64,000 bases of DNA, taken from the NCBI GenBank assembly GCA_049968235.1, contig JBMFRC010000007.1:96001-160000 (forward strand), in the 5' to 3' direction. Position 1 is the stretch's first letter. Each line of letters opens with the position of its first letter. A program made the position numbers and the translations under genes. Positions 262-59,894 of the stretch are shown one piece after another. The notes beneath the pieces are model-generated. The model was not told the DNA's origin. It saw only the letters and a program-made list of their open reading frames with translations, and ran no database searches. This DNA comes from Candidatus Hydrogenedens sp. Its GTDB lineage: Bacteria; Hydrogenedentota; Hydrogenedentia; Hydrogenedentales; Hydrogenedentaceae.

Positions 262-774
262 TTATTTCACTTTTGATTTATTTGTCTTCCGTGTAGTTAT
301 CCTCTGCTTTGGGGAAGTATAAAGATAGGCACATACAGATTTCATTTTACAGTTAACAAAAGGCAGAAGGTCTTCGTCCGGTAGTGGTTTTTGAATTATT
401 TTGTCTAATGTCCATTTTCTAAGTGTAGCAGTAAGTGCCAAACGGACTTCATACATGGCTTTATGAAAAGCACATACATGTTCCATATCATCTATGTCTT
501 TGCAGTAATCCCCTAAAATTTTCCCTTCACATGCTTCTACAATTTCAAGGAGTGTAATTTGCTCCGGAGGAAGATTTAAAGAAAAACCTCCAGAAGGTCC
601 TCTGTGCGCATTAAGAATTCGTGATTTGGTAAGAAGTGTCATAATTTTGGAAAGGTAAGAAGTAGAAATATGAATGTGTTTTGTAAGTTCAAGATGTGAA
701 ATAGTTTTTTTTTCTTTATGAAGAGCTATAAATGTTAGTGCCTGTATAGCAGTGATTGTTGTATTGCTGAACAT
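262..774 (-). CDS. Rrf2-family transcriptional regulator (NsrR/IscR-like) with three C-terminal Cys. The ORF extends to 825, but M18 at 774 has an AGGA RBS and a typical Rrf2 N-terminus.
   Basis: Winged-helix segment '...TISHLELTKHIHISTSYLSKIMTLLTKSRILNAHRGPSGGFSL' is typical of Rrf2. A Cys triad follows (C..x8..C..x9..C). It lies immediately downstream of hcp on the same strand. Confidence 0.75.
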   Translation of the reverse strand: MFSNTTITAIQALTFIALHKEKKTISHLELTKHIHISTSYLSKIMTLLTKSRILNAHRGPSGGFSLNLPPEQITLLEIVEACEGKILGDYCKDIDDMEHVCAFHKAMYEVRLALTATLRKWTLDKIIQKPLPDEDLLPFVNCKMKSVCAYLYTSPKQRITTRKTNKSKVK

Positions 775-846
775 AAAAAGAATCCTACTATCTTGTAATG
801 TACTTGGGGAACAGATATAGGACAATCTGTTCCCCTTTATTTGTAA

Positions 847-2157
847 TTATGACACAACTTGTAGAATTTGTTTCACTTCTTCAGAGGCATTTGTGCCGAT
901 AGGTTTTAAGTCATATTTCTCCTGTAAAATTTTTAGCACATTAGGAGTAATAAACGCTGGTAAAGCAGGACCTAACCGGATGCCTTTTACACCTAACGAT
1001 AATAAAGTTAATAACACAGCAACGGCTTTTTGTTCAAACCAACTGACAACAAGGGTTAAGGGTAAATCGTTCACTCCACAATTAAAGACCTTTGCCAGAG
1101 CAAGGGCGGTCTGAATAGCACCGTAAGAATCATTACATTGCCCCATATCTAATAAACGAGGAATTCCCTCCACATCCCCGTATTCATAATTACGGATACG
1201 GTATTTACCGCAACCTAATGTGAGAATAAGCGACTCTTTAGGGGTATTCTGTGCAAAATCAGCAAAGTAGTTACGACCGGGTTCAGCACCATCACAACCA
1301 CCAATAAGGAATATATGCTTAATTTTTCCTGCCTTGATTAACTCTATAAGTTTATCCGCAATGGAAAGGATATAGGTCCAATGAAAGCCAATAGTACTTT
1401 CTTTTATTTCGGTAGGTTGTAATGGACCTATTTCAAGTGCTTTTTTAATAACAGGTGAGAAATCACCATCGTTAAGACGAGGTGCACCCGGTACACCTGT
1501 GCAATGAAGTGTAAATAAACGATCAAGATAAGTATTATGACTTGCCGGGATAAGAACGCAGTTTGTAGTAACAACTATAGGACCACCAAATCTTTCAAAT
1601 TCCTTCCGCTGAAGTTGCCATGCACCGCCATAATGACCAGCAAAATGCGAATATTCCCGTAATTTCGGATACATATGAGCAGGTAACATTTCTCCATGCG
1701 TATAGACTTTAATCCCTGTGCCCTTTGTTTGTTCCAGTAATTGTTTCAAATCTAAAAGGTCATGTCCGGTAATGAGAATGCCGGGACCTTCTTGAATTCC
1801 TTCCTTGACCCTTACTGGGGATGGATTCCCGAAAGTTTCTACATGTGCAATGTTTAGTAACTCCATCGTTTTTAAGTTCATCTTGCCACATTCAAGAACT
1901 AATTCCAGAAGGTGCGTCATGTCAAAGTTCACATTGGTCATGGTCGCAAATAAGGCACGCTCAATAAATTCTTCAATTTCCGGGTCCGTTTTCCCTAAAC
2001 GGCGGGCATGATGTTTGTATGCAGACATTCCTTTCAATCCATAGAGTAGTGTCTTCTGTAAAGACTCCATATCTGCATCTTTACCACAGACACCTTTCTG
2101 TGTACAACCGGTACCATTAAAGGTTTGTTCACATTGGTCGCAAAACATATTTGCCAT
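847..2157 (-). CDS. hcp: hybrid cluster protein / hydroxylamine reductase (short, class-III-like, 436 aa)
   Basis: N-terminal 'MFCDQCEQT...GxCGKD' Cys cluster and overall Hcp/prismane-like sequence. TAA stop. Confidence 0.85.
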   Translation of the reverse strand: MANMFCDQCEQTFNGTGCTQKGVCGKDADMESLQKTLLYGLKGMSAYKHHARRLGKTDPEIEEFIERALFATMTNVNFDMTHLLELVLECGKMNLKTMELLNIAHVETFGNPSPVRVKEGIQEGPGILITGHDLLDLKQLLEQTKGTGIKVYTHGEMLPAHMYPKLREYSHFAGHYGGAWQLQRKEFERFGGPIVVTTNCVLIPASHNTYLDRLFTLHCTGVPGAPRLNDGDFSPVIKKALEIGPLQPTEIKESTIGFHWTYILSIADKLIELIKAGKIKHIFLIGGCDGAEPGRNYFADFAQNTPKESLILTLGCGKYRIRNYEYGDVEGIPRLLDMGQCNDSYGAIQTALALAKVFNCGVNDLPLTLVVSWFEQKAVAVLLTLLSLGVKGIRLGPALPAFITPNVLKILQEKYDLKPIGTNASEEVKQILQVVS

Positions 2158-2196
2158 AAATTTTTCTCCTACATTTAAGGTTAATATTTTGGAAAA

Positions 2197-2240: not shown

Positions 2241-2837
2241 CAAATCAAATAGTTTGTCGATTGTGATTAGATACAAATGGTAGTAAACAAATATAAAGAG
2301 TAATGAAAGACCCTATCTGAAATTTTTCTTCCTGTAAGAATACATCTGCTACATCTCAGACATATTGTTATTGGAGTAACTAATTTTCGCCCATTCATCA
2401 TAGCAGTAGCGGACTTGTTTCCTTGTAGATATTTTTCAAACAAACACTACTTTCTTGAATAATTGTTTTCCGGAAAATACAGAATTTCTCTTGCAAGGAT
2501 ATATAACATGCAGATTTGTTTGTGTCTAACTCAATAGATATTCTATGTGTTTTATTCAAAATATCTTAATATACTGTCCTTTCATGTTTTTCCAAAAAAT
2601 TCTTTAGAAATGAATTGCTTTCTCATTTGTATCGTCTTTTAAAGCAGTTAATACAAATCACTCGAGAAAGGATACGACAATGAAAATGAAACACATGACA
2701 ACAATCACTAAGGGACAAAATCATCCCAAAACGGCATCTTCCGCGGAAGCACTATTTTTCTATTTATATTTCACTGTAATTTCTGTTATGTTATCTGCTG
2801 CATTTGCCGAAAAAGGTAACTAATATCTATAACGGTT

Positions 2838-5712: not shown

Positions 5713-5858
5713 TATCTTTTTCTCCTCAAATAAAATTATAAATTACTTTTGAATATTACAAATTCTAATGAAACCCAGATGTCTTTCAATCTGTCTCTAT
5801 ATATGGTAATAAACATACTACGCGCGTGGCAAAAAACAAAACCAGAAAGGATATGCGT

Positions 5859-6842
5859 ATGTTAAAAAAGAAAGGATTTACTTTAATTGAGTTGTTGGTT
5901 GTAATTGCTATTATTGGTATACTTGCAGCCATCTTGCTACCTGCCCTTGCCCGTGCACGCGAAGCGGCTCGCCGTTCCAGTTGTCAAAACAATCTGAAAC
6001 AATGGGGACTTGTCCTTAAAATGTATTCCAACGAAGCAAGAGGAGAACGATTTCCTCCTGTTCAATTTGGTGCCTATCCACAAATTAACGGAAATATCGA
6101 AGTTCGTGCCGACCTTTGTCCCAGTACCTTCTTAATCTATCCTGAATATCTCAACGACCCTATGATAGCCTTTTGTCCATCGGACTCCGACTATCGTCAA
6201 ACAATTACTCGTGCCAAATATCCTGACCGTGATGATTGGTGTATAAATGTATATGCCAGTGATACAGTATCCTGTGCCTCTGCTATGGATTCAAGTTATA
6301 TTTACTTAGGATTGGTCATGGACCGTATAGGCGATGAATGGCCTATGGTAGATATTACCCCTATGGTAAATGTTTTGAATTCACTTGGAGCAGGTCCTGT
6401 ATCCGGTTCAGGGAATGCCCCCGCACAGTTAGTTTACGGATTAATGGCATTGGCAAAACCGGAACTCATTACTGCTGTTAATACAAAAGATAATGCAGGT
6501 ATTATGCGCGTCGTTGATGCAGACATAACAAGTTCTATACTTGATGGCTATGGTAATGGAGGAACCAATACCGTTTACCGGTTGCGTGAAGGGATTGAAA
6601 GATTTCTCATCACAGATATTAATAATCCCGCATCCAGTTCAAAAGCACAGAGTAGTCTACCTATCATGTTCGATAAAGTATCAACTGATGCTTCAAACTT
6701 TAACCATATTCCAGGAGGGTCGAATGTCCTTTATCTTGATGGACATGTCGAATTTCTCCGTTACCAACCGACGGGCGGAACTGCTCCTGTAACACAAGCA
6801 GTAGCAGTTGTCATCGGAGTTCTTGTTTCCGCATTGACATAA
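5859..6842 (+). CDS. prepilin-type N-terminal cleavage/methylation domain protein with C-terminal H-X9-DG motif (DUF1559 family)
   Basis: '[48 protein letters not shown]' and later '[17 protein letters not shown]'. An AAAGGA RBS lies 7 nt before the ATG at 5859; the ORF is open from GTG 5826. Confidence 0.8.
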
Positions 6843-6876: not shown

Positions 6877-6918
6877 AATAGGCAGAAAACTTAATATAGT
6901 GTTTCTGCCTATTTTTAT
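6877..6918 (+). terminator. rho-independent terminator after the DUF1559 gene
   Basis: Stem AATAGGCAGAAAC / GTTTCTGCCTATT followed by a T-rich run. Confidence 0.55.
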
Positions 6919-7007
6919 TTATGTAAAAGAAACCTTTTTCTCTTTTTTAAGTATAATAAAAGAAAAAATTTTTTAAATAATTTTCACTAACAATTCAGGA
7001 TTTTACT

Positions 7008-8003
7008 ATGAACCCAAAACCGATTATTGCTATAACAATGGGAGATATTAATGGTATTGGTCCCGAAATAATTGGCAAAGTTTTAATAAATAAAGAAATC
7101 TTAAAAATCTGTACCCCCATAATACTCGGAAACATACAGGCATATCAGTACTATTGCAGTAAATTAAAAAACTATTTGGAACCCATCAAAATTGATACCC
7201 CCGAAGAAGCCCTGCATCTGAAAAACAAAGTCGGCATCATTGAACTGGAATATCAAAATTTAAAAATAAGACCAGGAATCATTGACCCAAAAAATAGCAT
7301 CTCTGCAACCGCATGGATTCACCAGGCAGTTAAATGGTGTATTGAAAAAAGATGTGATGCCATTGTAACCTGTCCCATAACGAAAGAAGGGTTAGCCCGA
7401 GCAAAAATCCCCTATGATGGACATACTACTATGTTAGCAGACTGGACAAAAACAAAAAATTATCGGATGTCTCTATTCGCAGGAAATATGCGAGTTGTTC
7501 ATCATACCGCTCACAAATCACTACTAAATGCTATTCAGAGTCTTAACAAAAAAGACTTGATAAAAACTATTGAAATTGGATACAACGCATTAAAAACAAT
7601 TTGCACGCACACATTTCATATAGGTGTTGCGGGACTGAACCCCCATGCAGGGGAACAGGGACTTTTCGGAAATGAAGAATTAGATATTATTTCACCAGCC
7701 ATCAATACATGCAAGAAGAAAGGAATTCCCTGTTCAGGACCTTATCCCCCGGATACCATTTTCCGAAGAATGTTCCGGGGGGAATTTGATATGATTATTG
7801 CTATGTATCACGACCAGGGACACATCCCTATGAAACTCATAGCCATGGACAAAGGCGTCAATGTTACATTAGGATTACCCATCATAAGAACATCCGTTGA
7901 CCATGGGACTGCATTTGATATTGCAGGTAAAGGGATTGCTTGCGAACAAAGTCTATATCACGCCATAAAACTCGCTATCCAATTCACAAAAAAGAAAGAT
8001 TGA
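7008..8003 (+). CDS. pdxA: 4-hydroxythreonine-4-phosphate dehydrogenase
   Basis: 'IAITMGDINGIGPEI', 'GHTTMLADWT' and 'VDHGTAFDIAGKGIA' PdxA motifs. Confidence 0.85.
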   Translation: MNPKPIIAITMGDINGIGPEIIGKVLINKEILKICTPIILGNIQAYQYYCSKLKNYLEPIKIDTPEEALHLKNKVGIIELEYQNLKIRPGIIDPKNSISATAWIHQAVKWCIEKRCDAIVTCPITKEGLARAKIPYDGHTTMLADWTKTKNYRMSLFAGNMRVVHHTAHKSLLNAIQSLNKKDLIKTIEIGYNALKTICTHTFHIGVAGLNPHAGEQGLFGNEELDIISPAINTCKKKGIPCSGPYPPDTIFRRMFRGEFDMIIAMYHDQGHIPMKLIAMDKGVNVTLGLPIIRTSVDHGTAFDIAGKGIACEQSLYHAIKLAIQFTKKKD

Positions 8004-8008
8004 TTTAC

Positions 8009-9283
8009 ATGATACCTTACTTCAACAAATCATTATACATGCTCTTTCCTCTATTGTTTTTATTAACTACTTTTGCATATTCCCAGACCTTTTCTCTTTA
8101 TCCTCAATTCTTACAAGTAGGTCCTAATCCTTATTCAATTGCTATTGCCGACATTAATGGAGACGAAATAGTGGACATTGTTACTGCAGACCGTGGTGAA
8201 ATGCGAAATCCTCGTGAAGAAAAACCTGCAAACGATGAATTATCTATCCTGCTATCTCAAGGAATTTTAAATTACATAAAATTACATCCTTCTTTAAAAA
8301 CCGATTTTGCTCCCTACGCCATCGCTATCGCCAATATGGACTCTCTCAAATGGCCGGATATTGTTGTTGCAAATTTCCTCGCTAAAAAAAATCAAGATAT
8401 CCAGATATTCCATAACTTAAAGGAAGAAAACATTTTTACGGTTACCTCTATAAAAATCCCGGACGATAGTTTAAAATATGCACGATTTCTTGATGGAGAC
8501 GAGCAACCTCTTTTTACAACTCCAGGTTTAACATCTCTGGTAATTACCGATATAAATAAGGACGGATTAAATGATGTAATCACAACAGGTTGGAGTAGCG
8601 ATATCGTAGCAGTCTTGCTCGGAGATTCAAAAGAATCCTTAATCCTGCATCAAATTCTCCCTACTCCGGGAGGACCTCGGTCAATTGCAACAAATGACTT
8701 TGATAATGACAAATTAACCGATATTGTTGTAACAATGTATAATTCTGGCGAACTTTTATTCTTGAAAGGGAATGAAGAATACAATTTTTATGAACACTCA
8801 CGAATCCTCACACGAGGTGCTCAACCCAATCGTATATTCCTTGCTGATTTCAATGCTGATGGGAAAACAGACATTGTAATTACTCACAGAAAAGTTAACC
8901 AACCCCTCGAAATCTTATACGGTGACACCGTTCCTTTCTCTTTCCGTTTATCGGATACTTTCTATTTTAATACTTCAGACCCTGAGGTAAACACGGAAAT
9001 GATGGACATTACTGTATCTGACTTCAACAATGACCGACTTCCTGATATTGCAATTGCTGACAGAAAAGGACAACAACTTATTGTTATGATAAACAAAGGT
9101 GCAAACCCCAAAAAAGACACCACCCAACCTACCTCATTTACACCAGAAAAATATCCAATAAAATCAGGAAAACCAGTAGCCATTAACTCTGCGGACCTAA
9201 ATCAAGATGGTTTTGTAGATATAATTATCAGCACACAGGATACCAATGAAGTCTTATTTTTCTTGAACAATAAGAAAAAATAA
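8009..9283 (+). CDS. secreted FG-GAP repeat (integrin-alpha-like beta-propeller) protein
   Basis: At least six repeats of D-x-N-x-D-G-x-x-D (IADINGDEIVDIV, ITDINKDGLNDVI, TNDFDNDKLTDIV, LADFNADGKTDIV, VSDFNNDRLPDIA, SADLNQDGFVDII) plus a signal peptide. The start was moved to the ATG just after the pdxA stop; the track ORF begins at 7940 inside pdxA. Confidence 0.7.
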   Translation: MIPYFNKSLYMLFPLLFLLTTFAYSQTFSLYPQFLQVGPNPYSIAIADINGDEIVDIVTADRGEMRNPREEKPANDELSILLSQGILNYIKLHPSLKTDFAPYAIAIANMDSLKWPDIVVANFLAKKNQDIQIFHNLKEENIFTVTSIKIPDDSLKYARFLDGDEQPLFTTPGLTSLVITDINKDGLNDVITTGWSSDIVAVLLGDSKESLILHQILPTPGGPRSIATNDFDNDKLTDIVVTMYNSGELLFLKGNEEYNFYEHSRILTRGAQPNRIFLADFNADGKTDIVITHRKVNQPLEILYGDTVPFSFRLSDTFYFNTSDPEVNTEMMDITVSDFNNDRLPDIAIADRKGQQLIVMINKGANPKKDTTQPTSFTPEKYPIKSGKPVAINSADLNQDGFVDIIISTQDTNEVLFFLNNKKK

Positions 9284-24777: not shown

Positions 24778-26220
24778 ATGACAAAAAAAACTATTGAACC
24801 TCGTTTACTCAAAGGTTTTCAAGACCACCTACCACCAAAAAGTAAAATTCGACAGGAGATAAAAGAAAAAATTATTTCCGTCTATGAAAAATATGGTTTT
24901 GCATTCATCGAAACACCCGCAATTGAATTGAAAGAAATCTTACTCGGTCCCGGAGGAGAAAATATCAATAAAGAAATTTTCTTCTTAGAAACACCCGAAG
25001 GGGAACAATCCTGTCTTCGATTTGACCATACAGTTCCCTTTGCCCGCGTCATTGCCCAATATCCTGAAAAAATAAAAATCCCTTTCCGTAGATACACCAT
25101 TGGGTCTGTATGGCGTGCCGATAAACCCGGTGTGGGGAGATACCGTGAATTCGTCCAGATGGATATTGATATTGCCGGAACACCTAACACCGCTGCTGAT
25201 GCAGAAATCATTGCCATCATGGTAGAAGTTATGAAAATCCTCGGATTTAATAATTTTCAATCACAAATCAACAATAGAAAATTAATTGACGCTCTATTAA
25301 TACAAAATGGTATTAAAGATATAGATACACAAAAACACATCCTGCGAGTTATTGATAAACTGCAAAAAATAGGTATCGATAATATTCGTAAAGAACTCGG
25401 AGAAGGTCGTATAGATGATTCCGGTGACCCTATCAAAGGCGTCGGATTACCGAATAGTATTATTGAAAAAATTATTAGTTTCATAACTATAACCGGCAAA
25501 ACACGCAAAGAAACTATTCAGAATATCAAACAATACTTATCAGACCAAACAGAATCTCAACAGGCAATCTTTACTATGGAAGAACTTGACCAATATCTAT
25601 CCGCTCTTGATATATCTGATACGGAAGCATCCTTTTCCACTTCACTTACCCGAGGACTGGACTACTATTCCGGACCTGTTTTTGAAATGATACTCAAAAA
25701 TGCTCCTCATATCGGCTCGGTTATGGGCGGTGGAAGGTATGACGGACTCATTTCACGATTTACAGACAAAACTATCCCCTGCACAGGAATGTCAATCGGT
25801 ATAGATAGACTTATAAATGCTATGGAAGAATTAAAACTAATAGATACACAAAAACCAATATATGATGTCATTATTACTCGAGTAGGAAAAGTTCCTATAA
25901 CGGAAGCACTTTCTATAGCAAAAGAATTGCGCAATCACGATTTAAAGGTCAGCGTCTATCTCGGGAAAAAAACAAAAGAAACTTTAGGCGAACAATTATC
26001 ACATGCAGACCACTACAACATACCCATTGCTGTTATATTGGGTGAAGATGAACTCAAAAAAGGGGAAATCTGTGTAAAAGATTTATACTATGGAGAAAAA
26101 GCTCGTAAGGATATAAAAGATAGAAATCAATACCGTGAAGCAGGAACAGTAAGTCAGGTTACTATCTCACGGGAAAAATTGGTAGAAACAATCTTTTCAT
26201 TTCTCAATAAAAATTATTGA
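24778..26220 (+). CDS. hisS: histidine--tRNA ligase (class II)
   Basis: Motif 2 'RYTIGSVWRADKPGVGRYREFVQMDIDIAG', motif 3 'GGGRYDGL...GMSIGIDRL', and a C-terminal anticodon-binding domain. Confidence 0.75.
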   Translation: MTKKTIEPRLLKGFQDHLPPKSKIRQEIKEKIISVYEKYGFAFIETPAIELKEILLGPGGENINKEIFFLETPEGEQSCLRFDHTVPFARVIAQYPEKIKIPFRRYTIGSVWRADKPGVGRYREFVQMDIDIAGTPNTAADAEIIAIMVEVMKILGFNNFQSQINNRKLIDALLIQNGIKDIDTQKHILRVIDKLQKIGIDNIRKELGEGRIDDSGDPIKGVGLPNSIIEKIISFITITGKTRKETIQNIKQYLSDQTESQQAIFTMEELDQYLSALDISDTEASFSTSLTRGLDYYSGPVFEMILKNAPHIGSVMGGGRYDGLISRFTDKTIPCTGMSIGIDRLINAMEELKLIDTQKPIYDVIITRVGKVPITEALSIAKELRNHDLKVSVYLGKKTKETLGEQLSHADHYNIPIAVILGEDELKKGEICVKDLYYGEKARKDIKDRNQYREAGTVSQVTISREKLVETIFSFLNKNY

Positions 26221-26687
26221 GGGTCACCAATTACAGGGTCATTATTTGATGGTAATTGACTCTCATTGTAGCGAATAATTCCTGTATGGTCTATACGGAA
26301 ATACCTATTCCCCGAATAACCTATTGTCTGAGGTGAAGCATAACATATAAACTGGACATTTGTTACTTGTGGCATAGAATATACATACCCCTGACGGATA
26401 CAGCCTTCACCCCATGATTCATCCAAATACCGCGTCGTCAGATTGGGAGATGAATTTACAAGGCTGTTAAAATCACCATAAGTATTATTTGCAGAATGAT
26501 ATGACACCTGTGCAGTACAAATAGCCCTTAAATTCCAGATAGTAGATGCCTCATTAGAATGAATTCGTGAACGTATTAATGTCGGAATAGTTATCGCAGA
26601 TATTATTGCGATTACTGCTACTACTACCATCATCTCTATAAGTGTAAACCCTTTTTGCCTTGTTCTCCACTGACGCCATTTATTCAT
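26214..26687 (-). CDS. type IV pilin / pseudopilin (prepilin N-terminal methylation domain)
   Basis: 'QKGFTLIEMMVVVAVIAIISAI'. An AAAGGA RBS is present. Confidence 0.75.
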   Translation of the reverse strand: MNKWRQWRTRQKGFTLIEMMVVVAVIAIISAITIPTLIRSRIHSNEASTIWNLRAICTAQVSYHSANNTYGDFNSLVNSSPNLTTRYLDESWGEGCIRQGYVYSMPQVTNVQFICYASPQTIGYSGNRYFRIDHTGIIRYNESQLPSNNDPVIGDPQ

Positions 26688-26715
26688 CGTTCACATCCTT
26701 TGTTATTTTAGAATG

Positions 26716-26761
26716 TAAAACAAAAAGGCATGATGGCGGTCACCGGGTTCCGCCATCATGC
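26716..26761 (-). terminator. intrinsic terminator/attenuator between the two pilin genes
   Basis: 12-bp GC-rich inverted repeat GCATGATGGCGG..CCGCCATCATGC, followed on the minus strand by CUUUUUGUUUU. Confidence 0.6.
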
Positions 26762-26812
26762 ACTCAGCACCAACACAACCCACTGATTAGCGGGTTAATG
26801 GCTAAACTACGA

Positions 26813-27244
26813 TTATTGTTCTCCGATGGGCGGGTCACCAGCGCCAGCCTGTCCACCTGTATTGAAGCGGATTACACCACTGGCATCTGTGTAGAAATAA
26901 CGATTACCACTTACACCAACTTCACTCGGGTCTGCATTGCAGGTAAAGTTATTTGGTCCCGGAGAAGCCAGAGTAAATGTATAACCTTGCTTAATACCAG
27001 CCCAGTTTCCTTCTAAGAATGGAGGGGTTGCCCCTGTTAGGTCTGCAAAATCACCCGTATAAGAACCATTTGCAGAGTTATAGGCAACTTCAGCACCAAC
27101 AATGGCTTTTAAGTTGCTGATTGCAGCAGATTCATTGGACTGCAATCTGGAACGAAGCAGGTTGGGAATCGCAATTGCTGCGATAATAGCGATGATTGCT
27201 ACCACAATCATCAATTCAATGAGTGTGAAACCTTTATTTTTCAT
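26813..27244 (-). CDS. type IV major pilin (PilA-like)
   Basis: '[30 protein letters not shown]'. Strong AAGGAG RBS, 143 aa. Confidence 0.8.
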   Translation of the reverse strand: MKNKGFTLIELMIVVAIIAIIAAIAIPNLLRSRLQSNESAAISNLKAIVGAEVAYNSANGSYTGDFADLTGATPPFLEGNWAGIKQGYTFTLASPGPNNFTCNADPSEVGVSGNRYFYTDASGVIRFNTGGQAGAGDPPIGEQ

Positions 27245-32469: not shown

Positions 32470-32631
32470 CAGTTCGTCCCCTCTGACTTGTCTGATTTGT
32501 CGGACCTGTTTGACTCGTTTATTTCCACCTAATTCTCACAATTAAATCTCTATTTTTACATTTATTTCATTTCACTTGACTTTATTAACCATAACGTTTA
32601 TAATAAAACTACAAATTACAAGGAGTGACCT

Positions 32632-33321
32632 GTGATTAAGCGAAAAATCATTTCTATAGACTCCGAAAAATGTAACGGTTGTGGTTTGTGTGTTAACGCC
32701 TGTGCGGAAGGTGCTATAAAACTCATTAATGGCAAAGCACAATTAGTTTCCGATGTTTACTGCGATGGTTTAGGAGCATGTCTGCCTCATTGCCCCACAT
32801 TAGCACTCTCCATTGTAGAACGAGAAGCGGAACCTTTTGATGAAGAATTAGTTAAATTACAGCAAAGCATTAACGAACCTAAAACACCCATACATACATG
32901 CCCGAGCATACAATTCAAACCTGACCCTGCCCGAAAAGGAACCCTTTCCTACTGGCCTATCCAGATTCGACTCGTTCCCCCTATGGCTCACTACCTTCAA
33001 AACGCTAAACTCCTGGTAGTGGCGGATTGTGTTCCCATCGCATATCAAAATTTCCACAGCGATTTTTTGCAAGACCATGTTGTCCTTGTCGGCTGTCCCA
33101 AATTCGACCCGAAAGAACAATATGTTCAAAAATTCGCCGAAATTTTCACAAACAATGATATAAAAAACGTTACCATCCCCGTTATGGAAGTTCCATGCTG
33201 TCAGGCACTACCCAATATCGTACTTGCAGGCTTGCAATATTCAGGGAAGAATATCCCTGTTGAAAAAATTATAATCTCAATTCAAGGAGAAATATTGGGT
33301 AAACAATTCATTAATGGGTAG
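32632..33321 (+). CDS. 4Fe-4S dicluster ferredoxin-domain protein with a Cys-containing C-terminal domain (GTG start)
   Basis: 'CNGCGLCVNAC' plus 'CDGLGACLPHCP' motifs. AGGAG RBS. Confidence 0.65.
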   Translation: MIKRKIISIDSEKCNGCGLCVNACAEGAIKLINGKAQLVSDVYCDGLGACLPHCPTLALSIVEREAEPFDEELVKLQQSINEPKTPIHTCPSIQFKPDPARKGTLSYWPIQIRLVPPMAHYLQNAKLLVVADCVPIAYQNFHSDFLQDHVVLVGCPKFDPKEQYVQKFAEIFTNNDIKNVTIPVMEVPCCQALPNIVLAGLQYSGKNIPVEKIIISIQGEILGKQFING

Positions 33322-33327
33322 AAATTA

Positions 33328-33803
33328 ATGCAACAAAAATCATCTAAAATATCCTCAGGTTTTTCTCATTTAATACCTATCTGCGTATGCTTCGGAATTC
33401 TCATCGGAGTAGGTTCTTTCACTTTTATTACGCCCGCGGTTATTCATACCTTACCGATGACCCCAACGCCTGTGCTAATTGCCATGTAATGAAAGATTTT
33501 CTCGACTCCTGGCAAAAATCAAGCCATCACACTGTTGCAGTCTGTAATGACTGCCATACAGGACATACCTTGTTCTCCAAATACTATGTCAAAGGCTTAA
33601 ACGGCTATCACCATTCCACCGCATTCACTCTGGGCAATTTCCACGAACCTATTCGCATTAAAGAATTCAACCGAAAAGTAACAGAGGGAAACTGCCGATT
33701 TTGCCACCAAGACATTGTGCAAAATATTGATTCCAATATTGCTCATCGCAAACCATTACAATGCTTAAATTGTCATTTTAATGTAGGTCATTTTAATTAT
33801 TAA
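33328..33803 (+). pseudogene. nrfH: nrfH (NapC/NirT-family tetrahaem cytochrome c) interrupted by a single-base frameshift in a T4 run near 33423
   Basis: The TM anchor reads in frame 1 (MQQKSS...FGILIGVGSFTF). The haem domain reads in frame 0 from 33387 with four CXXCH motifs (CANCH, CNDCH, CRFCH, CLNCH). One extra T restores '..GSFTFYYARGYSYLTDDPNACANCH'. Confidence 0.75.
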
Positions 33804-33820
33804 AGGAAAAGAAAAAGAGC

Positions 33821-35239
33821 ATGACAAAAAAAATCAGAGGCAATGAAGGTATATCCTCAATCACCGCAGTTATCCTTGTGCTGGGAGTTGCTTTCGCCAC
33901 ATTTGCGGTAACTGCATTGCTTATTAATATCTTTGAGAAACAACAAGAGGCAAAAAATCCTTTTTTCCGTGTTGTTGACATTAATGACGACACGGAAGAC
34001 CCGGAAATCTGGGGAAAGAATTTTCCTATCCAGTATGACCTGTATAAAAGAACTGTAGATATGGTCCGCACAAAATACGGTGGCAGTGAAGCATTACCTC
34101 ATACGCCTACCGAAAATGACCCGCGTTTCGTTGTTAGCCAATCCAAAATTGAACTCGACCCCCGACTAAAACGAATGTGGGCGGGTTATGCCTTTGCCAT
34201 TGATTTTCGTGAAGAGCGAGGACATGCCTATATGCTCGATGACCAGACCTTCACAGGCAGACAACAGAAGCCACAATTCGGTGTGTGTGCACATTGCCAC
34301 GCATCAGTATATGTCCCCTATAAAAAATTGGGTAATGGCGACCTTATAAAAGGTTTTGAAAAGATGAATCCCATGCCCTATATGGAAGCGAGAAAACTCT
34401 TACAACATCCTGTTGCATGTATCGATTGTCATGACCCAAAAACCATGCAACTACGAGTAACCCGTCCCGGTTTCCTTGAAGGAATTAAAACCTACAAAGA
34501 AGCTCAGGGAATAAAGGACTACAATCCCAACACTATGGCAAGCAGACAAGAAATGCGGACCTATGTCTGTGCCCAATGCCATGTTGAATATTATTTCAAA
34601 GGCGATGAAAAACGACTTACCTACCCATGGCATAAAGGTCTGGAAGCAGATAATATCCTCGCCTACTACGATGAAATCAACTTCAAAGATTGGGTTCATG
34701 CAGAAACAAATGCACCTATGCTCAAAGCACAACATCCTGAATTTGAATTATGGAGTCAGGGCATTCATGCTCGTTCCGGTGTCGCCTGTGCAGATTGCCA
34801 CATGCCATATACTCGCGTAGGAGCTTTAAAAGTAAGTGACCATCATGTCCGTAGTCCATTATTGAATATTAACCGTGCCTGCCAGACCTGTCACCATTTC
34901 TCCGAAGAAGAACTCAAAGCACGCGTAGAACGTATTCAAGACAAAACAGCTGAAATGAAAGATATGGCAATGGATTCTCTTATAGCACTCATTGACGATA
35001 TTAAACGAATCCTGGATACAGGCATCTCCAATGAAAAAGTTGAAGAAGCCCGCTTATGCCAGCGTCGTGCGTCATTCCTGATAGACTTTGTTGAGGCGGA
35101 AAACTCCACAGGCTTCCACGCCGACCAGGAATCCGCCCGTATCCTATTCAAAGCCATGGACCATCTTCGCAAAGGACAGGTCGCACTCAAAGACGCCATT
35201 ACCCTCTACCAGGCATACGGCAACACAACAACAAACTAA
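33821..35239 (+). CDS. nrfA: cytochrome c nitrite reductase, pentahaem catalytic subunit
   Basis: Five CXXCH motifs (CAHCH, CIDCH, CAQCHVEYYF, CADCH, CQTCH), an N-terminal anchor/signal, and the conserved 'CAQCHVEYYF'. Confidence 0.85.
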   Translation: MTKKIRGNEGISSITAVILVLGVAFATFAVTALLINIFEKQQEAKNPFFRVVDINDDTEDPEIWGKNFPIQYDLYKRTVDMVRTKYGGSEALPHTPTENDPRFVVSQSKIELDPRLKRMWAGYAFAIDFREERGHAYMLDDQTFTGRQQKPQFGVCAHCHASVYVPYKKLGNGDLIKGFEKMNPMPYMEARKLLQHPVACIDCHDPKTMQLRVTRPGFLEGIKTYKEAQGIKDYNPNTMASRQEMRTYVCAQCHVEYYFKGDEKRLTYPWHKGLEADNILAYYDEINFKDWVHAETNAPMLKAQHPEFELWSQGIHARSGVACADCHMPYTRVGALKVSDHHVRSPLLNINRACQTCHHFSEEELKARVERIQDKTAEMKDMAMDSLIALIDDIKRILDTGISNEKVEEARLCQRRASFLIDFVEAENSTGFHADQESARILFKAMDHLRKGQVALKDAITLYQAYGNTTTN

Positions 35240-35298
35240 TCTATCTCCATCATATCTAATTTTTCTATTAAAATATTTGAACATATTAATCATCTTAA

Positions 35299-36156
35299 CT
35301 ATCTCTTTTTTTTGCAGTCGAAGTAGTGGTTGTTTTTGGGACCGAACCAGCCGACATTCCATGCACGATTAATAGCACCGTAGGCATTTTCTTCCGTTGC
35401 CCATTCCCAGCGTTCTGAGGTGATATGTCCATCACACCATAAGACATTTGCCCTGCCCCAATGTCGAAAATGTAATGTTGGCGACATATATACACCTTCC
35501 TGCCCTCGTGGATAATTTGCTGAAACCATCAATGGCGGTTCCACAAAACTATATTCGACAATATATCCATTCTGAGGCATTCCACTATCTGCAAACATAA
35601 TCGTCTCTGAGGGATTTTCAATCATCCGCTCATGCATTCCTGATTTACATGCTTTTACCGGGTCATGTTCGATACTCAACATGGAACCGACATACGCCAT
35701 GTTATATCCATAGCCGCCCGAACCCGATTCAAATGCGTTGGGAACCTCGCCTAAACTCCGATATTCAAAAAATTCCGAGCATTCTTTAATCCTTCCCTCC
35801 GGCACATATTCAAATAACGGTCCTTTGCGAAAATCGAACGGCGTATCTGGATTTGGGGTATCTCGTCTTCCATGCCATCTACATCTACCTCCGAAATGGT
35901 CAGGTTCCGAACCCGGCAACAAAAAATCATACATATCCGAGGCGGCTGGAACATAATACCCATTATTCTCTGACGCATACATTGTATTAGCAAGGTACAA
36001 TTGTCTCAAATTATTCACACATGAGACACTCCTTGCCTGTGCCCGTGCCCTTGATAATGCAGGTAGAAGTATAATTGCCAGAATGCTAATGATGGCAATA
36101 ACAACCAGCAGTTCAATTAGAGTAAATCCCATATTTCTCTGCAAATTAAAAAACAT
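35299..36156 (-). CDS. prepilin-type N-terminal domain protein with H-X9-DG motif (DUF1559 family), second gene of the riboswitch-controlled operon
   Basis: '[44 protein letters not shown]' and '[16 protein letters not shown]'. Overlaps the upstream gene by 11 nt. Confidence 0.8.
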
Positions 36157-38707: not shown

Positions 38708-38959
38708 ATGATATTTGATTTTAGTAAGTGTCAATCATCTAAAGAAAATATTCAAAACGCTATAGGACTATGGATTCTTAATATTCAAGGAAAAGATGTT
38801 TGTTTCTGGGGAAATTTTGAAGAAGCTTCAAAAACTGCAGAACTTTATTTAAAAACAAAGAACATAGAAAATACTACTGTTTATCTAATAGATTGTGTTG
38901 ATTATAGCCAGATGTTCCATGAGGATCATTCTATAAATTCCTATTCCCAATCTATTTAA
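38708..38959 (+). CDS. hypothetical small protein (ORFan, AT-rich)
   Basis: ORF only; no recognisable motif. Confidence 0.25.
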   Translation: MIFDFSKCQSSKENIQNAIGLWILNIQGKDVCFWGNFEEASKTAELYLKTKNIENTTVYLIDCVDYSQMFHEDHSINSYSQSI

Positions 38960-39135
38960 TGCTTTAATCTATTTATTTTTCTATTAATGATAATAAAAAT
39001 TAATTATATTATTTTTCTTATTTATAAATAAAATTCTTTATTTTATCCCGAAAATTTGGCAAAATCTGGAATAATATGTTATAATTTCAATGATAATGAT
39101 TGTTTTCATTAAATTATAATAAAAGGATTTATTAT

Positions 39136-41485: not shown

Positions 41486-43189
41486 ATGATTTACTTTTTT
41501 ATTTCATATTCAATATTATTCCTTAGTTTTACAATCTCATCTCCGCCAACTTTTCAGGATTTGATGGCTCCTGATTTATTCCCAGAACCACAGTGTGGAA
41601 TGCTTGTAGAAAAAGCAGAAATTGTTGATGGGAATTTATCCGTCTTGACAACAGGTACGGAATTTTCACTTAATAAAACAGGTAATGGCACTTTTAAACA
41701 ACGAATTGGACATTACCGTCCTGTTCTCATAATGAATATTGAACCATGCATTGCAGAAGTCTCTCCACAGATAATTACAAATTCCCCCGGACGCGTTATT
41801 ATTTCTCATAATAATTTCAATCTTCGCATCAATGGTGATTCTCTATTCATGTTTCAAGCATTAAAACTTTTAACAATAACAGTATCCCGAAAATTTGATG
41901 CTGGTTTTCATGCATCATATAAAGCAAATCATGTGTTATTTGATGAATATGGAGGATTCGGCTTGTTTTATTCGGAACAGGAAGTGGAAGATGAATTCAA
42001 TCCTTATGAAGAGATAACCGCAAAATATACCATTCCTCCTAATGCTGTTTTATGGATAGGTATCTGTCCACCAAAACCATATAATTGGGAGCGTTCTATT
42101 AAAGATAATGTCGTCTGGCACTGGTCAAATCAATTAGGTTACCCTTCCAATACTGATTTAATATCTTGGGCAAAAGAAGGAAATATCATCCTGCTTCAAT
42201 CAGAAGTAATGTTATGGAAAGACTGGAACCTTGCTTTCATCCCAAGATTGGGTGAATCAGAATTCTCACGCGTTCGTGAAACCTGCCATCAACACGGATT
42301 AAAATTTATTGTCTATACAAGCCCCTTCTATTTCTTAAAAGGCACACCTTTTGAATCCCAATCCATGAATTCATTCGAAAATTTTAAAGGTTGGCCCCCC
42401 GGTGATGCCACAGGCAGAAACATAGACTTATTTTTATCAGAGATTACTCGAGTTATGCAGGAATACAAACCTGATGGTTTTTATTTTGATGGGCAATACA
42501 CAGATAACCCTGCACCATTATATATGCTTGCCAGAAAAAGTCGCGAACTATTAGGAGAAAATGCCATTTTAGAATGGCACTCAACATGGGCTCTTGGCAA
42601 CGGACAATGTTTCTTCCCTCAAGCCGATGCTTATGTTGATTTTATACTGCGAGGGGAAGGGCAAAATATGCTATATAAAGATTTCAATTATCTTCGCTAT
42701 TTTGTTTCATGTTATAACACCAGCAACAGTATTGGTGTTTTATGCACAAATGGACCTGATAAACCTGATGCAGATACTATTGACCGTCTACTTCAAGCAA
42801 ATTGCCGTCTTCATACTATTGTAGGCTGGCTACAAAATAAAGATATGATGAATTTATTGAAAACACATTATCGCTATAAACTTACCCCTGACCTGCGTAA
42901 AGAAATCGAACAACTGGCGGATAAAAGACAGAAAGAAATTCCAAACATCGCTAAAAAAAGAGCCGAAGAAATGAACATTCTACTTCATGAGCCTTCATGG
43001 AAAGAATCGATTTTTACAGAGGAATTCAACAGCATACCCAATTGTAAATCATCAATTTCCCCACTTAATGAGAATCCATTTTTAGTTCAAAATGGAATTA
43101 TGTCCATCTCGGCTCTACCTCACACTTACGCATATTTCACCTGTCCATTAGATAAAATTATTCAGGGATTTATCGTCCGATTTAAATAG
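41486..43189 (+). CDS. secreted hypothetical protein (possible TIM-barrel glycoside-hydrolase-like), ending at an in-frame TAG
   Basis: Signal peptide. 'KPDGFYFDGQY'-type motif. Continues in frame after the TAG into 43205..43570. Confidence 0.5.
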   Translation: MIYFFISYSILFLSFTISSPPTFQDLMAPDLFPEPQCGMLVEKAEIVDGNLSVLTTGTEFSLNKTGNGTFKQRIGHYRPVLIMNIEPCIAEVSPQIITNSPGRVIISHNNFNLRINGDSLFMFQALKLLTITVSRKFDAGFHASYKANHVLFDEYGGFGLFYSEQEVEDEFNPYEEITAKYTIPPNAVLWIGICPPKPYNWERSIKDNVVWHWSNQLGYPSNTDLISWAKEGNIILLQSEVMLWKDWNLAFIPRLGESEFSRVRETCHQHGLKFIVYTSPFYFLKGTPFESQSMNSFENFKGWPPGDATGRNIDLFLSEITRVMQEYKPDGFYFDGQYTDNPAPLYMLARKSRELLGENAILEWHSTWALGNGQCFFPQADAYVDFILRGEGQNMLYKDFNYLRYFVSCYNTSNSIGVLCTNGPDKPDADTIDRLLQANCRLHTIVGWLQNKDMMNLLKTHYRYKLTPDLRKEIEQLADKRQKEIPNIAKKRAEEMNILLHEPSWKESIFTEEFNSIPNCKSSISPLNENPFLVQNGIMSISALPHTYAYFTCPLDKIIQGFIVRFK

Positions 43190-45059: not shown

Positions 45060-45185
45060 TCAAATTATAATTTCATTAATCTCGCTACTACACTTTTCTC
45101 TTCCCTATTTTTTGATAATATATAAAAACTAATAATATTCAATTGTAATATATTTAAACCAATAAAAACTTTTTGGCACTGGAAT

Positions 45186-46860
45186 ATGAACCCATTTAGT
45201 CGTCGAGAGTTTTTAAGGTTAAGCAGTTTTTGTGCTATTGAAACTTCTTCCATCGCTTCCATCATAAAAAATTCAAAAGAAGAAAAATCTACTCTCATAT
45301 CGGATAATCTAAAAATTCCTCATGATAAGAATCTTCCTGCAAGTTATTTATTGGACTTTCATACTTCCATTCTTTAGTAGGGAAAAAATTTATTAGGTGT
45401 TTTGTCACCCCGACCACAATTATTTATCTCTTTGGGTGCTTTCAGTAAATCTAATTATGATGCAGAATTCCACTTTTGGTGGCCTGCACATAATTTAGGA
45501 CGATGGCTTGACGCCATGTTACGGCTTGAATCTGCAACGGGATTTAAAATTCCTCATAAACTTGAATCTGCTTGTATAAACAACTTACATCGTTTTTTGA
45601 TAATCCTGACCACATTTGTGTCAATTCGTACCCCAATGATTATTTTGGACTCCATTTACTTCGGGAAGATATGCCTGCCCTTCATGCATTAGTAAAGTAT
45701 CGAAATGACCGCTGGGCAAAGGATAAAGGTAAAAAAATGATAGAAAACTCAAACCGCGCCTGGCAGGATAATGGAACATGGAACCTTGATGTATGCGTTA
45801 ATGCAAAACGAAGTAATCATTTAGGTCGACACTCAGACCCCACAGACTCCTGTGGTCGAATGATTGAAGCACTTATATATTTTTATGAAGTGACCGGTGA
45901 ACTATGTGTCATTGACCTGGCGGAACGATTTGCCAAATACAACTTAGAAAATTCTACCAATCCTGATGGCACCATTAATTACGCCAGCAAACCAGACCAC
46001 ACTCATTCATATCTGAACACATTGAAAGGTCTATTCTTATATGGGAAAATAACCGGACAGAAAAAATACATAGACAGGGTTTCATCGGTTTATTATACAA
46101 CGGTGAAAGGACTTATTTCGGAATCGGGATATAATGCTCATGACCTCGGCACAGATGGGTTTGCAGAAGTAACCTCTGCGGGTGATTCCGCTCAACTGGC
46201 ACTATGGCTTGCATTGATGGGTGATGGTAAACTTCTTGATGACGTAGAACGACTTCTGCGCGTCCGACTTTTCGAATCTCAAATTATCGAAACACCTCCA
46301 TTAGTACCGGTTAAAAATGATAATGCATATATACATCGTGATTTAGAACAGCGTATCATCGGCGACTACGAAGGTTGTCATGAACATCCCCATAGTGGGA
46401 AACAAGCGGTTACCGATGTAACATCTGCTGTTCTCCACTCCGTCATCGACTTATACCAGCACACAGTTCAACAGAATGGAGATACCTTAAAAATATACTT
46501 TCATATCCCTTGCAGGACAAAATATGCAGATATAGAATCCAAACGCGGAAAAGAAGCAACATTAATAATCACTACTAAGAAACATTACGTCTTCTCATCC
46601 ACGTGCCTAATTGGACACCTAGAGAGAATATCAGATTTAAATCAGTTGGTAAATCTATTTCCGCTTCCATATCCGGTAATTTTGCATTCATCTCACAAGA
46701 ACGACCTGAAGGTCCCGTAGAGATAAATTATCAATTACCTGAGCGAATTACAAAAGATAATTTGCGAGGAATAGAGTTCACCTATAAGTGGCGCAGAGAT
46801 GACATCATGGGCATACCTCCCAACACAGACTTCTATCCATTCTATCCAACTCTGGAATAA
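45186..46860 (+). pseudogene. Tat-signal six-hairpin glycosidase-like (GH127/DUF1680-like) gene disrupted by a TAG-TAG double stop and two 1-nt frameshifts
   Basis: 'SRREFLRLSS' Tat signal (45186..45377). Then TAG TAG. The ORF continues in the same frame to 45692, shifts at the T6 run 45593-45598 into frame 2 (45572..46720), and shifts again around 46580-46700 into frame 1 (to 46860). Confidence 0.6.
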
Positions 46861-59517: not shown

Positions 59518-59780
59518 ATTTCAGAACAACTGATTTAAGTCAATTCTATTCGAAACCTCCAAATAAAGGGAGTTAAAGTATTTTTAAGACAGGTTATACA
59601 TAAGATTATGAGATAAAATCAGATTAATATTTGAAATGAAGGAAGAAAACAATAAGAGGTTTATTTCTTTTCATTTTTTTCTTCACTGCCGTTCTTATTT
59701 CATTTATTATAAGGTCTCATTTAATAAAAAAATGTCTTATGTGTTTAAAAAATTATTTTTTGAAAAAAATTAAAAAAGAC

Positions 59781-59814
59781 TTGACAAATACTTTTTTTTT
59801 TTTTTTGTATAATA
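59781..59814 (+). promoter_or_regulatory. consensus sigma70-like promoter (TTGACA ... TATAAT) with a T16 homopolymer in the spacer
   Basis: TTGACA at 59781-59786. T16 at 59792-59807. TATAAT at 59809-59814. The spacer is 22 nt as sequenced. A GAGGAGG RBS and the ATG at 59895 follow. Confidence 0.55.
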
Positions 59815-59894
59815 AATTTAATGATAATTAAGTAGTAAGAAGTAGTATAAGTGACAATTGAATAATTAAACATCCAAAAGAGGAGGCCAAGGGC

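What the first reader, a model, noticed from the sequence alone, without database searches (positions are those of the whole stretch)
32632..35239. ferredoxin-nrfH-nrfA cluster with nrfH split by a single-T deletion; NrfA uses CXXCH at all five haems
The nrfH membrane anchor and haem domain are in different frames. Adding one T to the T4 run at 33423-33426 reconstitutes a textbook NrfH N-terminus (TM helix then 'YYARGYSYLTDDPNACANCH').

This is either a real inactivating lesion of nitrite ammonification or a homopolymer sequencing error.

Also, the preceding ferredoxin-domain gene ends at a TAG that is in frame with the nrfH ATG 6 nt later.

NrfA has CAHCH at haem 1 rather than the enterobacterial CXXCK.
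Basis: seen in the sequence. Interest (0 to 1): 0.5.

Follow-up and report, generated by a model that had tools for sequence, protein, structure and literature searches.

The report
Frameshifted nrfH in frdX-nrfHA operon
An uncultured Candidatus Hydrogenedens bacterium has a nitrite-to-ammonium reductase operon whose membrane electron-donor gene (nrfH) is broken by loss of one T; the break is probably real and recent, and the other features flagged are already known or incidental.

Summary
nrfH is split between two frames at T4 (33423-33426). Adding one T gives a 158-aa protein that passes the NCBIfam NrfH equivalog cut-off. The sister species has T5 at this site and an intact gene.

The lesion is probably real. 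Two other public MAG contigs of the same species carry the same T4; they differ from the window by 1-3 SNPs and no indels. No other of about 50 long ORFs in the window is visibly split, despite 1524 homopolymer runs. Reads were not available, so a systematic or shared-data artefact is not excluded.

The lesion looks recent. dN/dS against the sister species is 0.03 for nrfH and nrfA. Haem motifs and catalytic residues are intact.

I found no support for programmed frameshifting: T4 is not a canonical tandem slippery site, there is no downstream structure, and the shift is not conserved.

The in-frame TAG is incidental. CXXCH at haem 1 is a known NrfA clade feature, present in all 120 nearest relatives.

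The "ferredoxin" belongs to the FrdX family, which normally sits next to hcp. Its operon with nrfHA, seen only in the Hydrogenedentes loci examined, is a small new detail.

Overall this is an ordinary, low-interest finding.

The parts
32530..32544 (+). Imperfect palindrome TAATTCTCACAATTA upstream of the operon; possible regulator site, function unknown
   Evidence: 7-1-7 palindrome with one mismatch. The core TAATnnTCAC is conserved in the frdX upstream regions of four Hydrogenedentes loci. No match to the HcpR/FNR consensus sequences quoted in PMC1274295.
32576..32604 (+). Sigma-70-like promoter TTGACT-17-TATAAT (11 of 12 matches) upstream of frdX
   Evidence: TTGA and the spacing are also conserved in the sister species. 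This is a consensus match only; promoter-like sites in the region are not more numerous than in shuffles.
32632..33321 (+). frdX-family gene: N-terminal 2x[4Fe-4S] ferredoxin domain plus C-terminal AF_0155 domain (PF27217) with five further invariant Cys; cytoplasmic; first gene of the operon; ends in TAG
   Evidence: (invariant C90, C133, C155, C189, C190). Homologues sit next to hcp and a Crp/Fnr regulator.
33328..33426 (+). nrfH 5' part in frame 1: start codon, N-terminal tail and transmembrane anchor. As sequenced, this frame runs on to a stop at 33487-33489.
   Evidence: 23 of 33 residues are identical to the sister NrfH N-terminus.
33423..33426 (+). Frameshift site: T4 where orthologues have T5 (ACT TTT TAY)
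   Evidence: alignment with L004, L005, L007, L009. The same T4 is present in L001/L002 and L003.
33427..33803 (+). nrfH 3' part in frame 3: tetrahaem domain (CANCHVM, CNDCH, CRFCH, CLNCH). Gene callers report it as a 138-aa ORF from the ATG at 33387, which lacks any signal or anchor.
33821..35239 (+). nrfA: pentahaem cytochrome c nitrite reductase of the CXXCH clade, Ca-type (LKAQH); intact
   Evidence: (PF02335, 437 bits).

Best explanation
The region is a three-gene operon, frdX-nrfH-nrfA, of an uncultured Candidatus Hydrogenedens species.

In relatives, NrfH is a tetrahaem quinol dehydrogenase held in the membrane by one N-terminal helix. It passes electrons from menaquinol to the periplasmic pentahaem NrfA, which reduces nitrite to ammonium.

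In this species one T has been lost from a T5 run at the codon boundary just after the membrane helix (F33/Y34). Translation from the nrfH start now yields a 53-residue membrane peptide. The haem domain can only be made from an internal ATG without a signal or anchor. Without one it cannot reach the periplasm, where haem is attached. I infer that quinol-linked nitrite ammonification through NrfH is lost.

The lesion is most likely a genuine, evolutionarily very recent mutation that is fixed in the sampled population. nrfA and frdX are still intact and show no decay.

Shown: the split, the T5 ancestral state, its presence in three assemblies, and strong purifying selection on nrfH and nrfA along almost all of the divergence.

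Inferred: loss of function, and that the T4 is biological rather than a shared technical error.
For: - Reconstitution: adding one T gives a protein above the NrfH equivalog cut-off, and orthologues have T5.
- Replication: the truncated 138-aa product has three NCBI accessions on three contigs, all Ca. Hydrogenedens MAGs.
- Independent haplotype: the contigs from GCA_049969095.1 and GCA_049971155.1 are 99.95-99.97% identical to the window. They have 3 and 1 SNPs (30106, 30128, 31587), zero indels over 6617 and 3777 nt, and the same T4. At least two haplotypes therefore share the lesion.
- Assembly quality: the shared 6.6-kb stretch holds 141 homopolymer runs of 4 nt or more with no other indel. 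The whole window holds 1524 such runs, more than 200 of them 6 nt or longer, yet none of the other roughly 50 long ORFs is split and Pfam matches are full length.
- Recency: dN/dS against the sister species is 0.034 for nrfH and 0.030 for nrfA, the lowest in the neighbourhood. Window-specific amino-acid changes number 1 in NrfH and 5 in NrfA, all conservative.
- The anchor matters: NrfH carries the hydrophobic N-terminal membrane anchor and is the quinol-to-NrfA link (PMC12285233). NrfH is required to anchor NrfA in the membrane (Simon et al. 2001, as cited in PMC8840924).
Against: - No reads were available, so T4 is not verified at read level.
- The three MAGs have neighbouring accessions and probably come from one study, one platform and possibly overlapping samples. 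A context-specific systematic error or a shared pipeline artefact would replicate.
- The complete lack of decay in nrfH and nrfA is also exactly what an artefact predicts.
- T5 to T4 is the typical direction of homopolymer under-calling.
- Loss of function is inferred from family knowledge, not measured. A second NapC/NirT-type quinol dehydrogenase elsewhere in the genome could replace NrfH.
Confidence: 0.7

Rival explanations
1. Technical artefact. The genome really has T5 and an intact nrfH. A homopolymer under-call, or an assembly or polishing error, produced T4. It recurs in the three MAGs because they share platform, pipeline or reads.
For: - T5 to T4 in a homopolymer is the classic error direction.
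- nrfH and nrfA show no other sign of decay.
- The three assemblies have adjacent accession series and are the only places where this species was found.
- A pattern scan of JGI metagenomes found no independent copy of either allele.
Against: - Three assemblies with different SNP consensus agree on T4 and show no indel differences at 141 other homopolymer runs.
- The 64-kb window has more than 200 runs of 6 nt or longer, which would be hit first by homopolymer error, yet no other gene is broken.
- Contig sizes of 3.8 and 6.6 kb suggest short-read assemblies, where 4/5-mer indel errors in a consensus are very rare. This last point is an inference.
Confidence: 0.22
2. Functional recoding or leaky expression. 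Ribosomes reading ACU-UUU slip back one base on the U4 run (tRNA-Phe re-pairs UUU to UUU). They continue as UAU-UAC and make full-length NrfH at some level, so the pathway is attenuated rather than lost.
For: - From direct reading of the sequence, a -1 P-site slip on C-ACU-UUU-A restores exactly the ancestral protein sequence.
- A GGAG lies 13 nt upstream of the run (33406-33409).
- nrfA is retained under apparent constraint.
Against: - There is no canonical X XXY YYZ heptamer.
- There is no downstream structure: z = +0.26 for 74 nt, and 116 of 200 shuffles fold at least as well.
- The shift is not conserved. All relatives examined encode NrfH in one frame.
- T4 is far too short for transcriptional slippage (general knowledge).
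- The GGAG simply encodes conserved Gly codons.
Confidence: 0.04
3. TAG read-through or recoding fuses the ferredoxin-like protein to NrfH, as hinted by the in-frame TAG 6 nt before the nrfH ATG.
For: The TAG at 33319-33321 is in frame with the ATG at 33328. The sister species has the same spacing.
Against: - In L017 the frdX stop and nrfH start overlap by 1 nt. In L018 they are 1 nt apart. Both junctions are out of frame.
- TAG ends 11 of 50 long ORFs in the window.
- Fusing a cytoplasmic Fe-S protein to a signal anchor makes no topological sense (inference).
- A fusion would not repair the frameshift.
Confidence: 0.01

Closest known systems
NrfHA menaquinol:nitrite oxidoreductase of Wolinella succinogenes and Desulfovibrio vulgaris (PDB 2J7A/2VR0; TIGR03153 NrfH, PF02335 NrfA)
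   Same: - Adjacent nrfH-nrfA gene order.
- NrfH has an N-terminal TM helix, four CXXCH motifs and the CXXCHXM haem-1 motif (CANCHVM).
- NrfA has five haem sites, the RGH, VEYYF and KAQH catalytic/Ca motifs, and an alignment to solved NrfA over about 350-440 residues.
   Different: - nrfH is interrupted by a 1-nt deletion.
- NrfA haem 1 is CAHCH, not CXXCK.
- No nrfI/nrfJ-type lyase gene lies next to the operon.
- An frdX-family gene precedes nrfH.
CXXCH clade of NrfA (Campylobacter jejuni, Anaeromyxobacter dehalogenans; Welsh et al. 2014 clades; Saghai et al. 2023, PMC10716430)
   Same: - All five motifs are CXXCH.
- It pairs with NrfH.
- It has the Ca-type K-x-Q-H motif.
- All 120 nearest database relatives share the CXXCH first motif.
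- The clade is described as monophyletic, taxonomically diverse and dominant in soils.
   Different: Nothing essential. This is a member from Hydrogenedentota. No phylogenetic placement against named clade members was done here.
FrdX, the ferredoxin-like protein of HcpR regulons (hcp-frdX operons of Desulfovibrio, Clostridia and C. difficile; PMC1274295, PMC12915319)
   Same: - Same family architecture (Fer4 dicluster plus AF_0155).
- A homologue 57% identical lies directly after hcp, with a divergent Crp/Fnr regulator (L019).
- 40 of 80 GTDB loci with homologues have hcp within 3.5 kb, and 31 have a Crp/Fnr regulator.
   Different: - Here and in the other Hydrogenedentes loci the gene heads an operon with nrfHA instead of hcp. 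None of the 80 non-Hydrogenedentes loci has nrfA or nrfH nearby.
- No HcpR-type site was recognised upstream.
- Direct sequence comparison with the experimentally studied FrdX proteins was not possible with the tools.
Homopolymer frameshift pseudogenes and contingency loci
   Same: A single-base loss in a mononucleotide run abolishes the reading frame.
   Different: The run is only 4/5 nt, far shorter than classical phase-variable tracts. Only one allele was seen in this species.

Membership tests
NrfH (cytochrome c nitrite reductase small subunit, TIGR03153) | Score above the curated equivalog cut-off | tested here: met
   154.8 bits against a cut-off of 134.2, but only for the reconstituted (+1 T) sequence; profile positions 2-138 of 138.
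NrfH (cytochrome c nitrite reductase small subunit, TIGR03153) | N-terminal transmembrane anchor contiguous with the tetrahaem domain in one reading frame | tested here: not met
   The anchor is in frame 1 (33328-33426) and the haem domain in frame 3 (33427-33803). As sequenced, this is a pseudogene of the family.
NrfH (cytochrome c nitrite reductase small subunit, TIGR03153) | Four CXXCH motifs, with haem 1 in a CXXCHXM motif (Met ligand; PMC8840924) | tested here: met
   CANCHVM, CNDCH, CRFCH and CLNCH. Aligns to D. vulgaris NrfH 2J7A_C over residues 23-156.
NrfH (cytochrome c nitrite reductase small subunit, TIGR03153) | Encoded immediately upstream of nrfA | tested here: met
   17-nt gap to nrfA. 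Same order in all relatives examined.
NrfA (cytochrome c552, PF02335) | Pfam gathering score, five haem-binding motifs, and catalytic Arg/Tyr/His with Ca-site K-x-Q-H | tested here: met
   437.3 bits against 24.1. Five CXXCH motifs. RGH, CAQCHVEYYF and LKAQHPE align to W. succinogenes NrfA.
NrfA, enterobacterial-type equivalogs (NF008339, TIGR03152) | Score above the equivalog cut-off, and CXXCK at haem 1 | tested here: not met
   287.6 bits against 595, and 219.9 against 692.5. Haem 1 is CAHCH. It is an NrfA but not of the CXXCK/NrfB-type subfamily.
CXXCH clade of NrfA | CXXCH as the first haem motif, shared with nearest relatives | tested here: met
   120 of 120 nearest cluster representatives have H at that position. 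The motif aligns in place of CLTCK of 8BCX. Tree placement with named members was not done.
FrdX family (Fer4 + AF_0155, hcp-linked) | Domain architecture: 2x[4Fe-4S] ferredoxin plus the PF27217 domain with conserved Cys | tested here: met
FrdX family (Fer4 + AF_0155, hcp-linked) | Genomic linkage to hcp and control by HcpR | tested here: not met
   Met in homologues. In this locus the neighbours are nrfHA, hcp lies 30 kb away next to an Rrf2 regulator, and no HcpR-like site was found.
Programmed -1 ribosomal frameshift | Slippery heptamer, downstream stimulatory structure, and conservation of the two-frame arrangement in relatives | tested here: not met
   Only a U4 run is present. Folding z = +0.26. 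All relatives examined are single-frame.
Phase-variable (contingency) homopolymer locus | Long tract, with both ON and OFF alleles in populations | tested here: inconclusive
   The tract is 4/5 nt. Only T4 was seen in this species (3 assemblies), and only intact, single-frame NrfH was recorded for the sister species (23 contigs encode the intact protein; T5 read directly in the aligned loci and one JGI contig). Read-level allele frequencies are not available.

The most novel reading that the evidence does not exclude
The break is real, yet nrfA (and frdX) are kept functional because NrfA no longer depends on NrfH in this lineage. One route would be a different quinol dehydrogenase, so that the frdX-nrfA module acts as a nitrite/NO detoxification unit alongside Hcp. 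Another would be a low level of -1 slippage on the U4 run that still supplies enough NrfH. Either would make this a natural experiment on NrfH-independent or frameshift-attenuated nitrite ammonification, in the poorly studied CXXCH clade.
Probability: 0.07. Interest if true: 0.5.

Novelty: new member of a known kind. Interest (0 to 1): 0.22.

Why it matters
- **Annotation.** Genome-based calls of DNRA potential in Candidatus Hydrogenedens MAGs would count this organism as a nitrite ammonifier because nrfA is intact. PGAP also names the 138-aa fragment as a normal NrfH. If the lesion is real, that inference is wrong for this population.
- **Operon organisation.** FrdX, an uncharacterised Fe-S protein needed for NO tolerance in C. 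difficile, is operonic with nrfHA throughout the Hydrogenedentes loci examined. This ties NrfHA there to the nitrosative-stress gene set.
- **Mechanism.** Neither point changes how these enzymes are thought to work.

Tried and rejected
- **More copies of this species.** Exact-protein look-ups of NrfA, the 138-aa fragment and FrdX found only the two other MAG contigs. A JGI metagenome pattern scan that allowed either T4 or T5 found nothing.
- **T4 alleles in the sister species.** A second metagenome scan returned one contig, and it was T5. This is too little to judge whether the site is a hotspot.
- **Extending the comparison between assemblies.** Two further look-ups (HisRS-like 24778-26220 and ORF 41486-43189) found no record, probably because my start codons differ from the called genes.
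- **Programmed frameshifting.** No stimulatory RNA structure was found.
- **A second broken gene.** hcp at 847-2157 looked short, with Pfam coverage starting at profile position 159. Its N-terminus MFCDQCEQT...CGK is intact, so it appears to be a naturally short Hcp.
- **A shared regulatory motif.** The frdX and hcp upstream regions share no k-mer of 9 nt or longer. No HcpR/FNR-type palindrome lies upstream of frdX.
- **Kern et al. 2008 on NrfH TM-segment variants.** The paper is not held in the library.
Full report
**1. What is in the sequence**

The + strand between 32632 and 35239 carries three closely spaced genes.

- **Gene 1 (32632..33321, 229 aa)** has an N-terminal ferredoxin-type 4Fe-4S dicluster domain (PF00037 and related families). 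The public collection also records the C-terminal family PF27217 (AF_0155) for it. It ends in TAG at 33319-33321.
- **nrfH** starts at ATG 33328, 6 nt later and in frame. This frame encodes MQQKSSKISSGFSHLIPICVCFGILIGVGSFTF, a typical NrfH tail plus membrane helix. It then runs into unrelated sequence and stops at 33487-33489.
- **The tetrahaem domain** lies in the other frame, open from 33348 to 33800. It reads ...FYYARGYSYLTDDPNACANCHVM..., with CANCH, CNDCH, CRFCH and CLNCH.
- **The two frames meet at the run TTTT, 33423-33426.** One added T gives a 158-aa protein that scores 154.8 bits on the NCBIfam NrfH equivalog TIGR03153 (cut-off 134.2). The match runs through the junction. The protein also aligns to D. 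vulgaris NrfH (2J7A chain C) over residues 23-156.
- **nrfA (33821..35239, 472 aa)** scores 437 bits on PF02335 and has five CXXCH motifs and no CXXCK.

**2. Ancestral state and relatives**

- The nearest intact NrfH proteins are 158 aa, 85-90% identical and named Candidatus Hydrogenedens sp..
- The sister species was recovered on 23 contigs from ENA, JGI and Logan assemblies. It has the same gene order: trkH, trkA, heparinase II/III-like, gene 1, nrfH, nrfA.
- At the homologous position the sister reads CAC TTTTT AC, which is T5 (ACT TTT TAC).
- More distant Hydrogenedentes contigs (L017, L018; gene 1 is 53-63% identical) keep the same six-gene synteny with intact nrfH.

**3. Real lesion or error?**

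Reads are not available, so I used indirect tests.

*(a) Replication.*
- The 138-aa fragment exists under three NCBI protein accessions on three contigs.
- Two were retrievable: a 6617-bp contig of GCA_049969095.1 and a 3777-bp contig of GCA_049971155.1. Both have T4.
- They are not copies of the window. They differ at 3 and 1 SNP positions (30106, 30128, 31587) and share the alternative allele at 31587. They show no indel over 6617 and 3777 nt. That stretch contains 141 homopolymer runs of 4 nt or more.
- At least two haplotypes therefore carry the lesion.

*(b) Assembly quality.*
- The window holds 1524 runs of 4 nt or more, over 200 of them 6 nt or longer.
- The other roughly 50 long ORFs show no split. 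Those with Pfam matches are covered end to end, for example PdxA 2-286 of 286, Aldedh 9-461 of 461, TrkH 18-491 of 502 and MFS_1 3-344 of 347.
- A platform with a homopolymer problem would break longer runs first.

*(c) Caveats.*
- The three MAGs probably stem from one study, judging from their adjacent accessions.
- The species was found nowhere else.
- A context-specific systematic error therefore cannot be excluded.

I put about 0.7 on a real lesion and about 0.2 on an artefact.

**4. Age and consequences**

Age of the lesion:
- Against the sister species, dN/dS is 0.034 for repaired nrfH and 0.030 for nrfA. It is 0.040 for gene 1 and 0.05-0.085 for the flanking genes, at dS of 0.6-1.4.
- With L017 and L018 as outgroups, the window lineage has 1 private amino-acid change in NrfH against 5 in the sister. 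NrfA has 5 conservative private changes against 2.
- The flanking genes show more change on the window branch: TrkA 15 against 6, and the heparinase-like gene 29 against 10.
- No relaxation is detectable. If real, the frameshift is very recent.

Functional inference:
- NrfH carries the membrane anchor and links the quinol pool to NrfA (PMC12285233). It is needed to hold NrfA at the membrane (Simon et al. 2001, cited in PMC8840924).
- A haem domain started at the internal ATG has no export signal (MLRNSHRSRFFHF...). It could not be matured in the periplasm. This step is an inference.
- No other multihaem ORF exists in the window. The rest of the genome is unknown.

**5. Recoding alternatives**

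- A -1 slip of tRNA-Phe on ACU-UUU would restore the exact protein.
- However, there is no tandem slippery heptamer. The 74 nt downstream fold no better than shuffles (z = +0.26). All relatives examined are single-frame. Programmed frameshifting is therefore not supported.
- The in-frame TAG is incidental. In L017 the two genes overlap by 1 nt, and in L018 they are separated by 1 nt. Both junctions are out of frame. TAG terminates 11 of 50 long ORFs here.

**6. NrfA haem 1**

- CAHCH aligns where solved NrfA structures have CXXCK, for example GVCLTCKT in 8BCX.
- The catalytic and Ca-site motifs RGH, CAQCHVEYYF and LKAQHPE are present.
- All 120 nearest cluster representatives have CXXCH first, and 119 have L-K-x-Q-H-P. 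They are 63-94% identical, and the named ones are Hydrogenedentota or Thermoanaerobaculia MAGs.
- The literature already describes this. Three of 18 NrfA clades, including C. jejuni, have the motif (PMC8840924). A monophyletic, taxonomically diverse CXXCH clade accounts for about 90% of soil nrfA placements (PMC10716430). All such enzymes pair with NrfH (PMC12285233).
- The feature is correct but not novel.

**7. The 'ferredoxin'**

- The family is very large, with more than 8000 hits, annotated as 4Fe-4S binding or ATP-binding protein.
- Besides the eight ferredoxin cysteines, it has five invariant Cys: C90, C133, C155, C189 and C190.
- Genomic context identifies it. A homologue 57% identical sits directly after hcp with a divergent Crp/Fnr regulator.
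- Of 80 GTDB loci with homologues, 40 have hcp within 3.5 kb, 31 have a Crp/Fnr regulator, and none has nrfA or nrfH. Others sit beside DUF1858/DUF438-hemerythrin genes.
- This matches FrdX of HcpR regulons (PMC1274295), which is needed for NO tolerance in C. difficile (PMC12915319).
- The frdX-nrfH-nrfA operon therefore appears to be an arrangement particular to Hydrogenedentes. It is preceded by a sigma-70-like TTGACT-17-TATAAT at 32576-32604 and a conserved TAATnnTCAC element at 32530-32544.
- It plausibly ties NrfHA to the nitrite/NO stress response. This is an inference; no regulator site was identified.

**8. Verdict**

- The most likely reading is a recent, genuine 1-nt deletion that inactivates nrfH in one Ca. 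Hydrogenedens population. A shared technical artefact is the main rival.
- The CXXCH NrfA is a known clade, and the in-frame TAG is incidental.
- The frdX linkage is a minor new contextual detail.
- Interest is low.

Noticed in passing
window 262-2240 (- strand): A short (436 aa) hybrid-cluster protein gene, hcp, at 847..2157 has an intact N-terminal Cys motif. It lies next to an Rrf2-family regulator at 262..825. Upstream of hcp are a perfect palindrome TAGATATAATATATCTA (2206-2222) and a (TA)7 run (2224-2237), which may be the regulator's operator. So hcp and frdX are unlinked in this genome.
   Followed up: partly
window 32632-33321 (FrdX residues 57 and 107): The window lineage has 9 private amino-acid changes in FrdX against 1 in the sister species. 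They include H107Y, at a His conserved in at least 90% of 65 homologues, and G57L. This might hint at relaxed constraint on frdX accompanying the nrfH lesion. The numbers are small, and flanking genes also evolve faster on this branch.
   Followed up: partly
L004-L009, about 6914-8779, versus window 35240-35298: The sister species carries a roughly 1.8-kb insertion between nrfA and the N_methyl/DUF1559 gene. It holds an N6/N4 DNA methyltransferase plus a 223-aa ORF with no Pfam hit. The window has only 59 bp at this position.
   Followed up: no
window 32530-32544 and the upstream regions of L004, L017 and L018: The element TAATnnTCAC is conserved about 35 nt upstream of the -35 box of the frdX-nrfHA promoter in four Hydrogenedentes lineages. 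In the window it forms the imperfect palindrome TAATTCTCACAATTA. It does not match the HcpR or FNR consensus.
   Followed up: partly
protein P0130 (Logan contig of 8892 bp, another Hydrogenedens lineage): A 104-aa NrfH call begins at the Met just after haem motif 1. This may be a second N-terminally disrupted nrfH or a start-codon miscall.
   Followed up: no
L011-L014 (Alphaproteobacteria and Nitrospirota MAGs): In these phyla the FrdX homologue is followed by a DUF1858-DUF438-hemerythrin-PAS_10 protein. In the Nitrospirota locus it is preceded by a Crp/Fnr regulator. This is another NO/iron-centre-repair-type neighbourhood for the family.
   Followed up: no
window 2158-2837, 45060-45571, 38712-39099, 59518-59894: These are unusually long stretches (380-680 bp) without an ORF of 100 aa or more, in an otherwise gene-dense window. 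They were not examined for small genes or RNAs.
   Followed up: no
window 5826-6842, 26214-27244, 35299-36156: There are several prepilin-type N-terminal methylation motif proteins, some with DUF1559. This is consistent with the Hydrogenedentes/PVC-like origin of the window.
   Followed up: no
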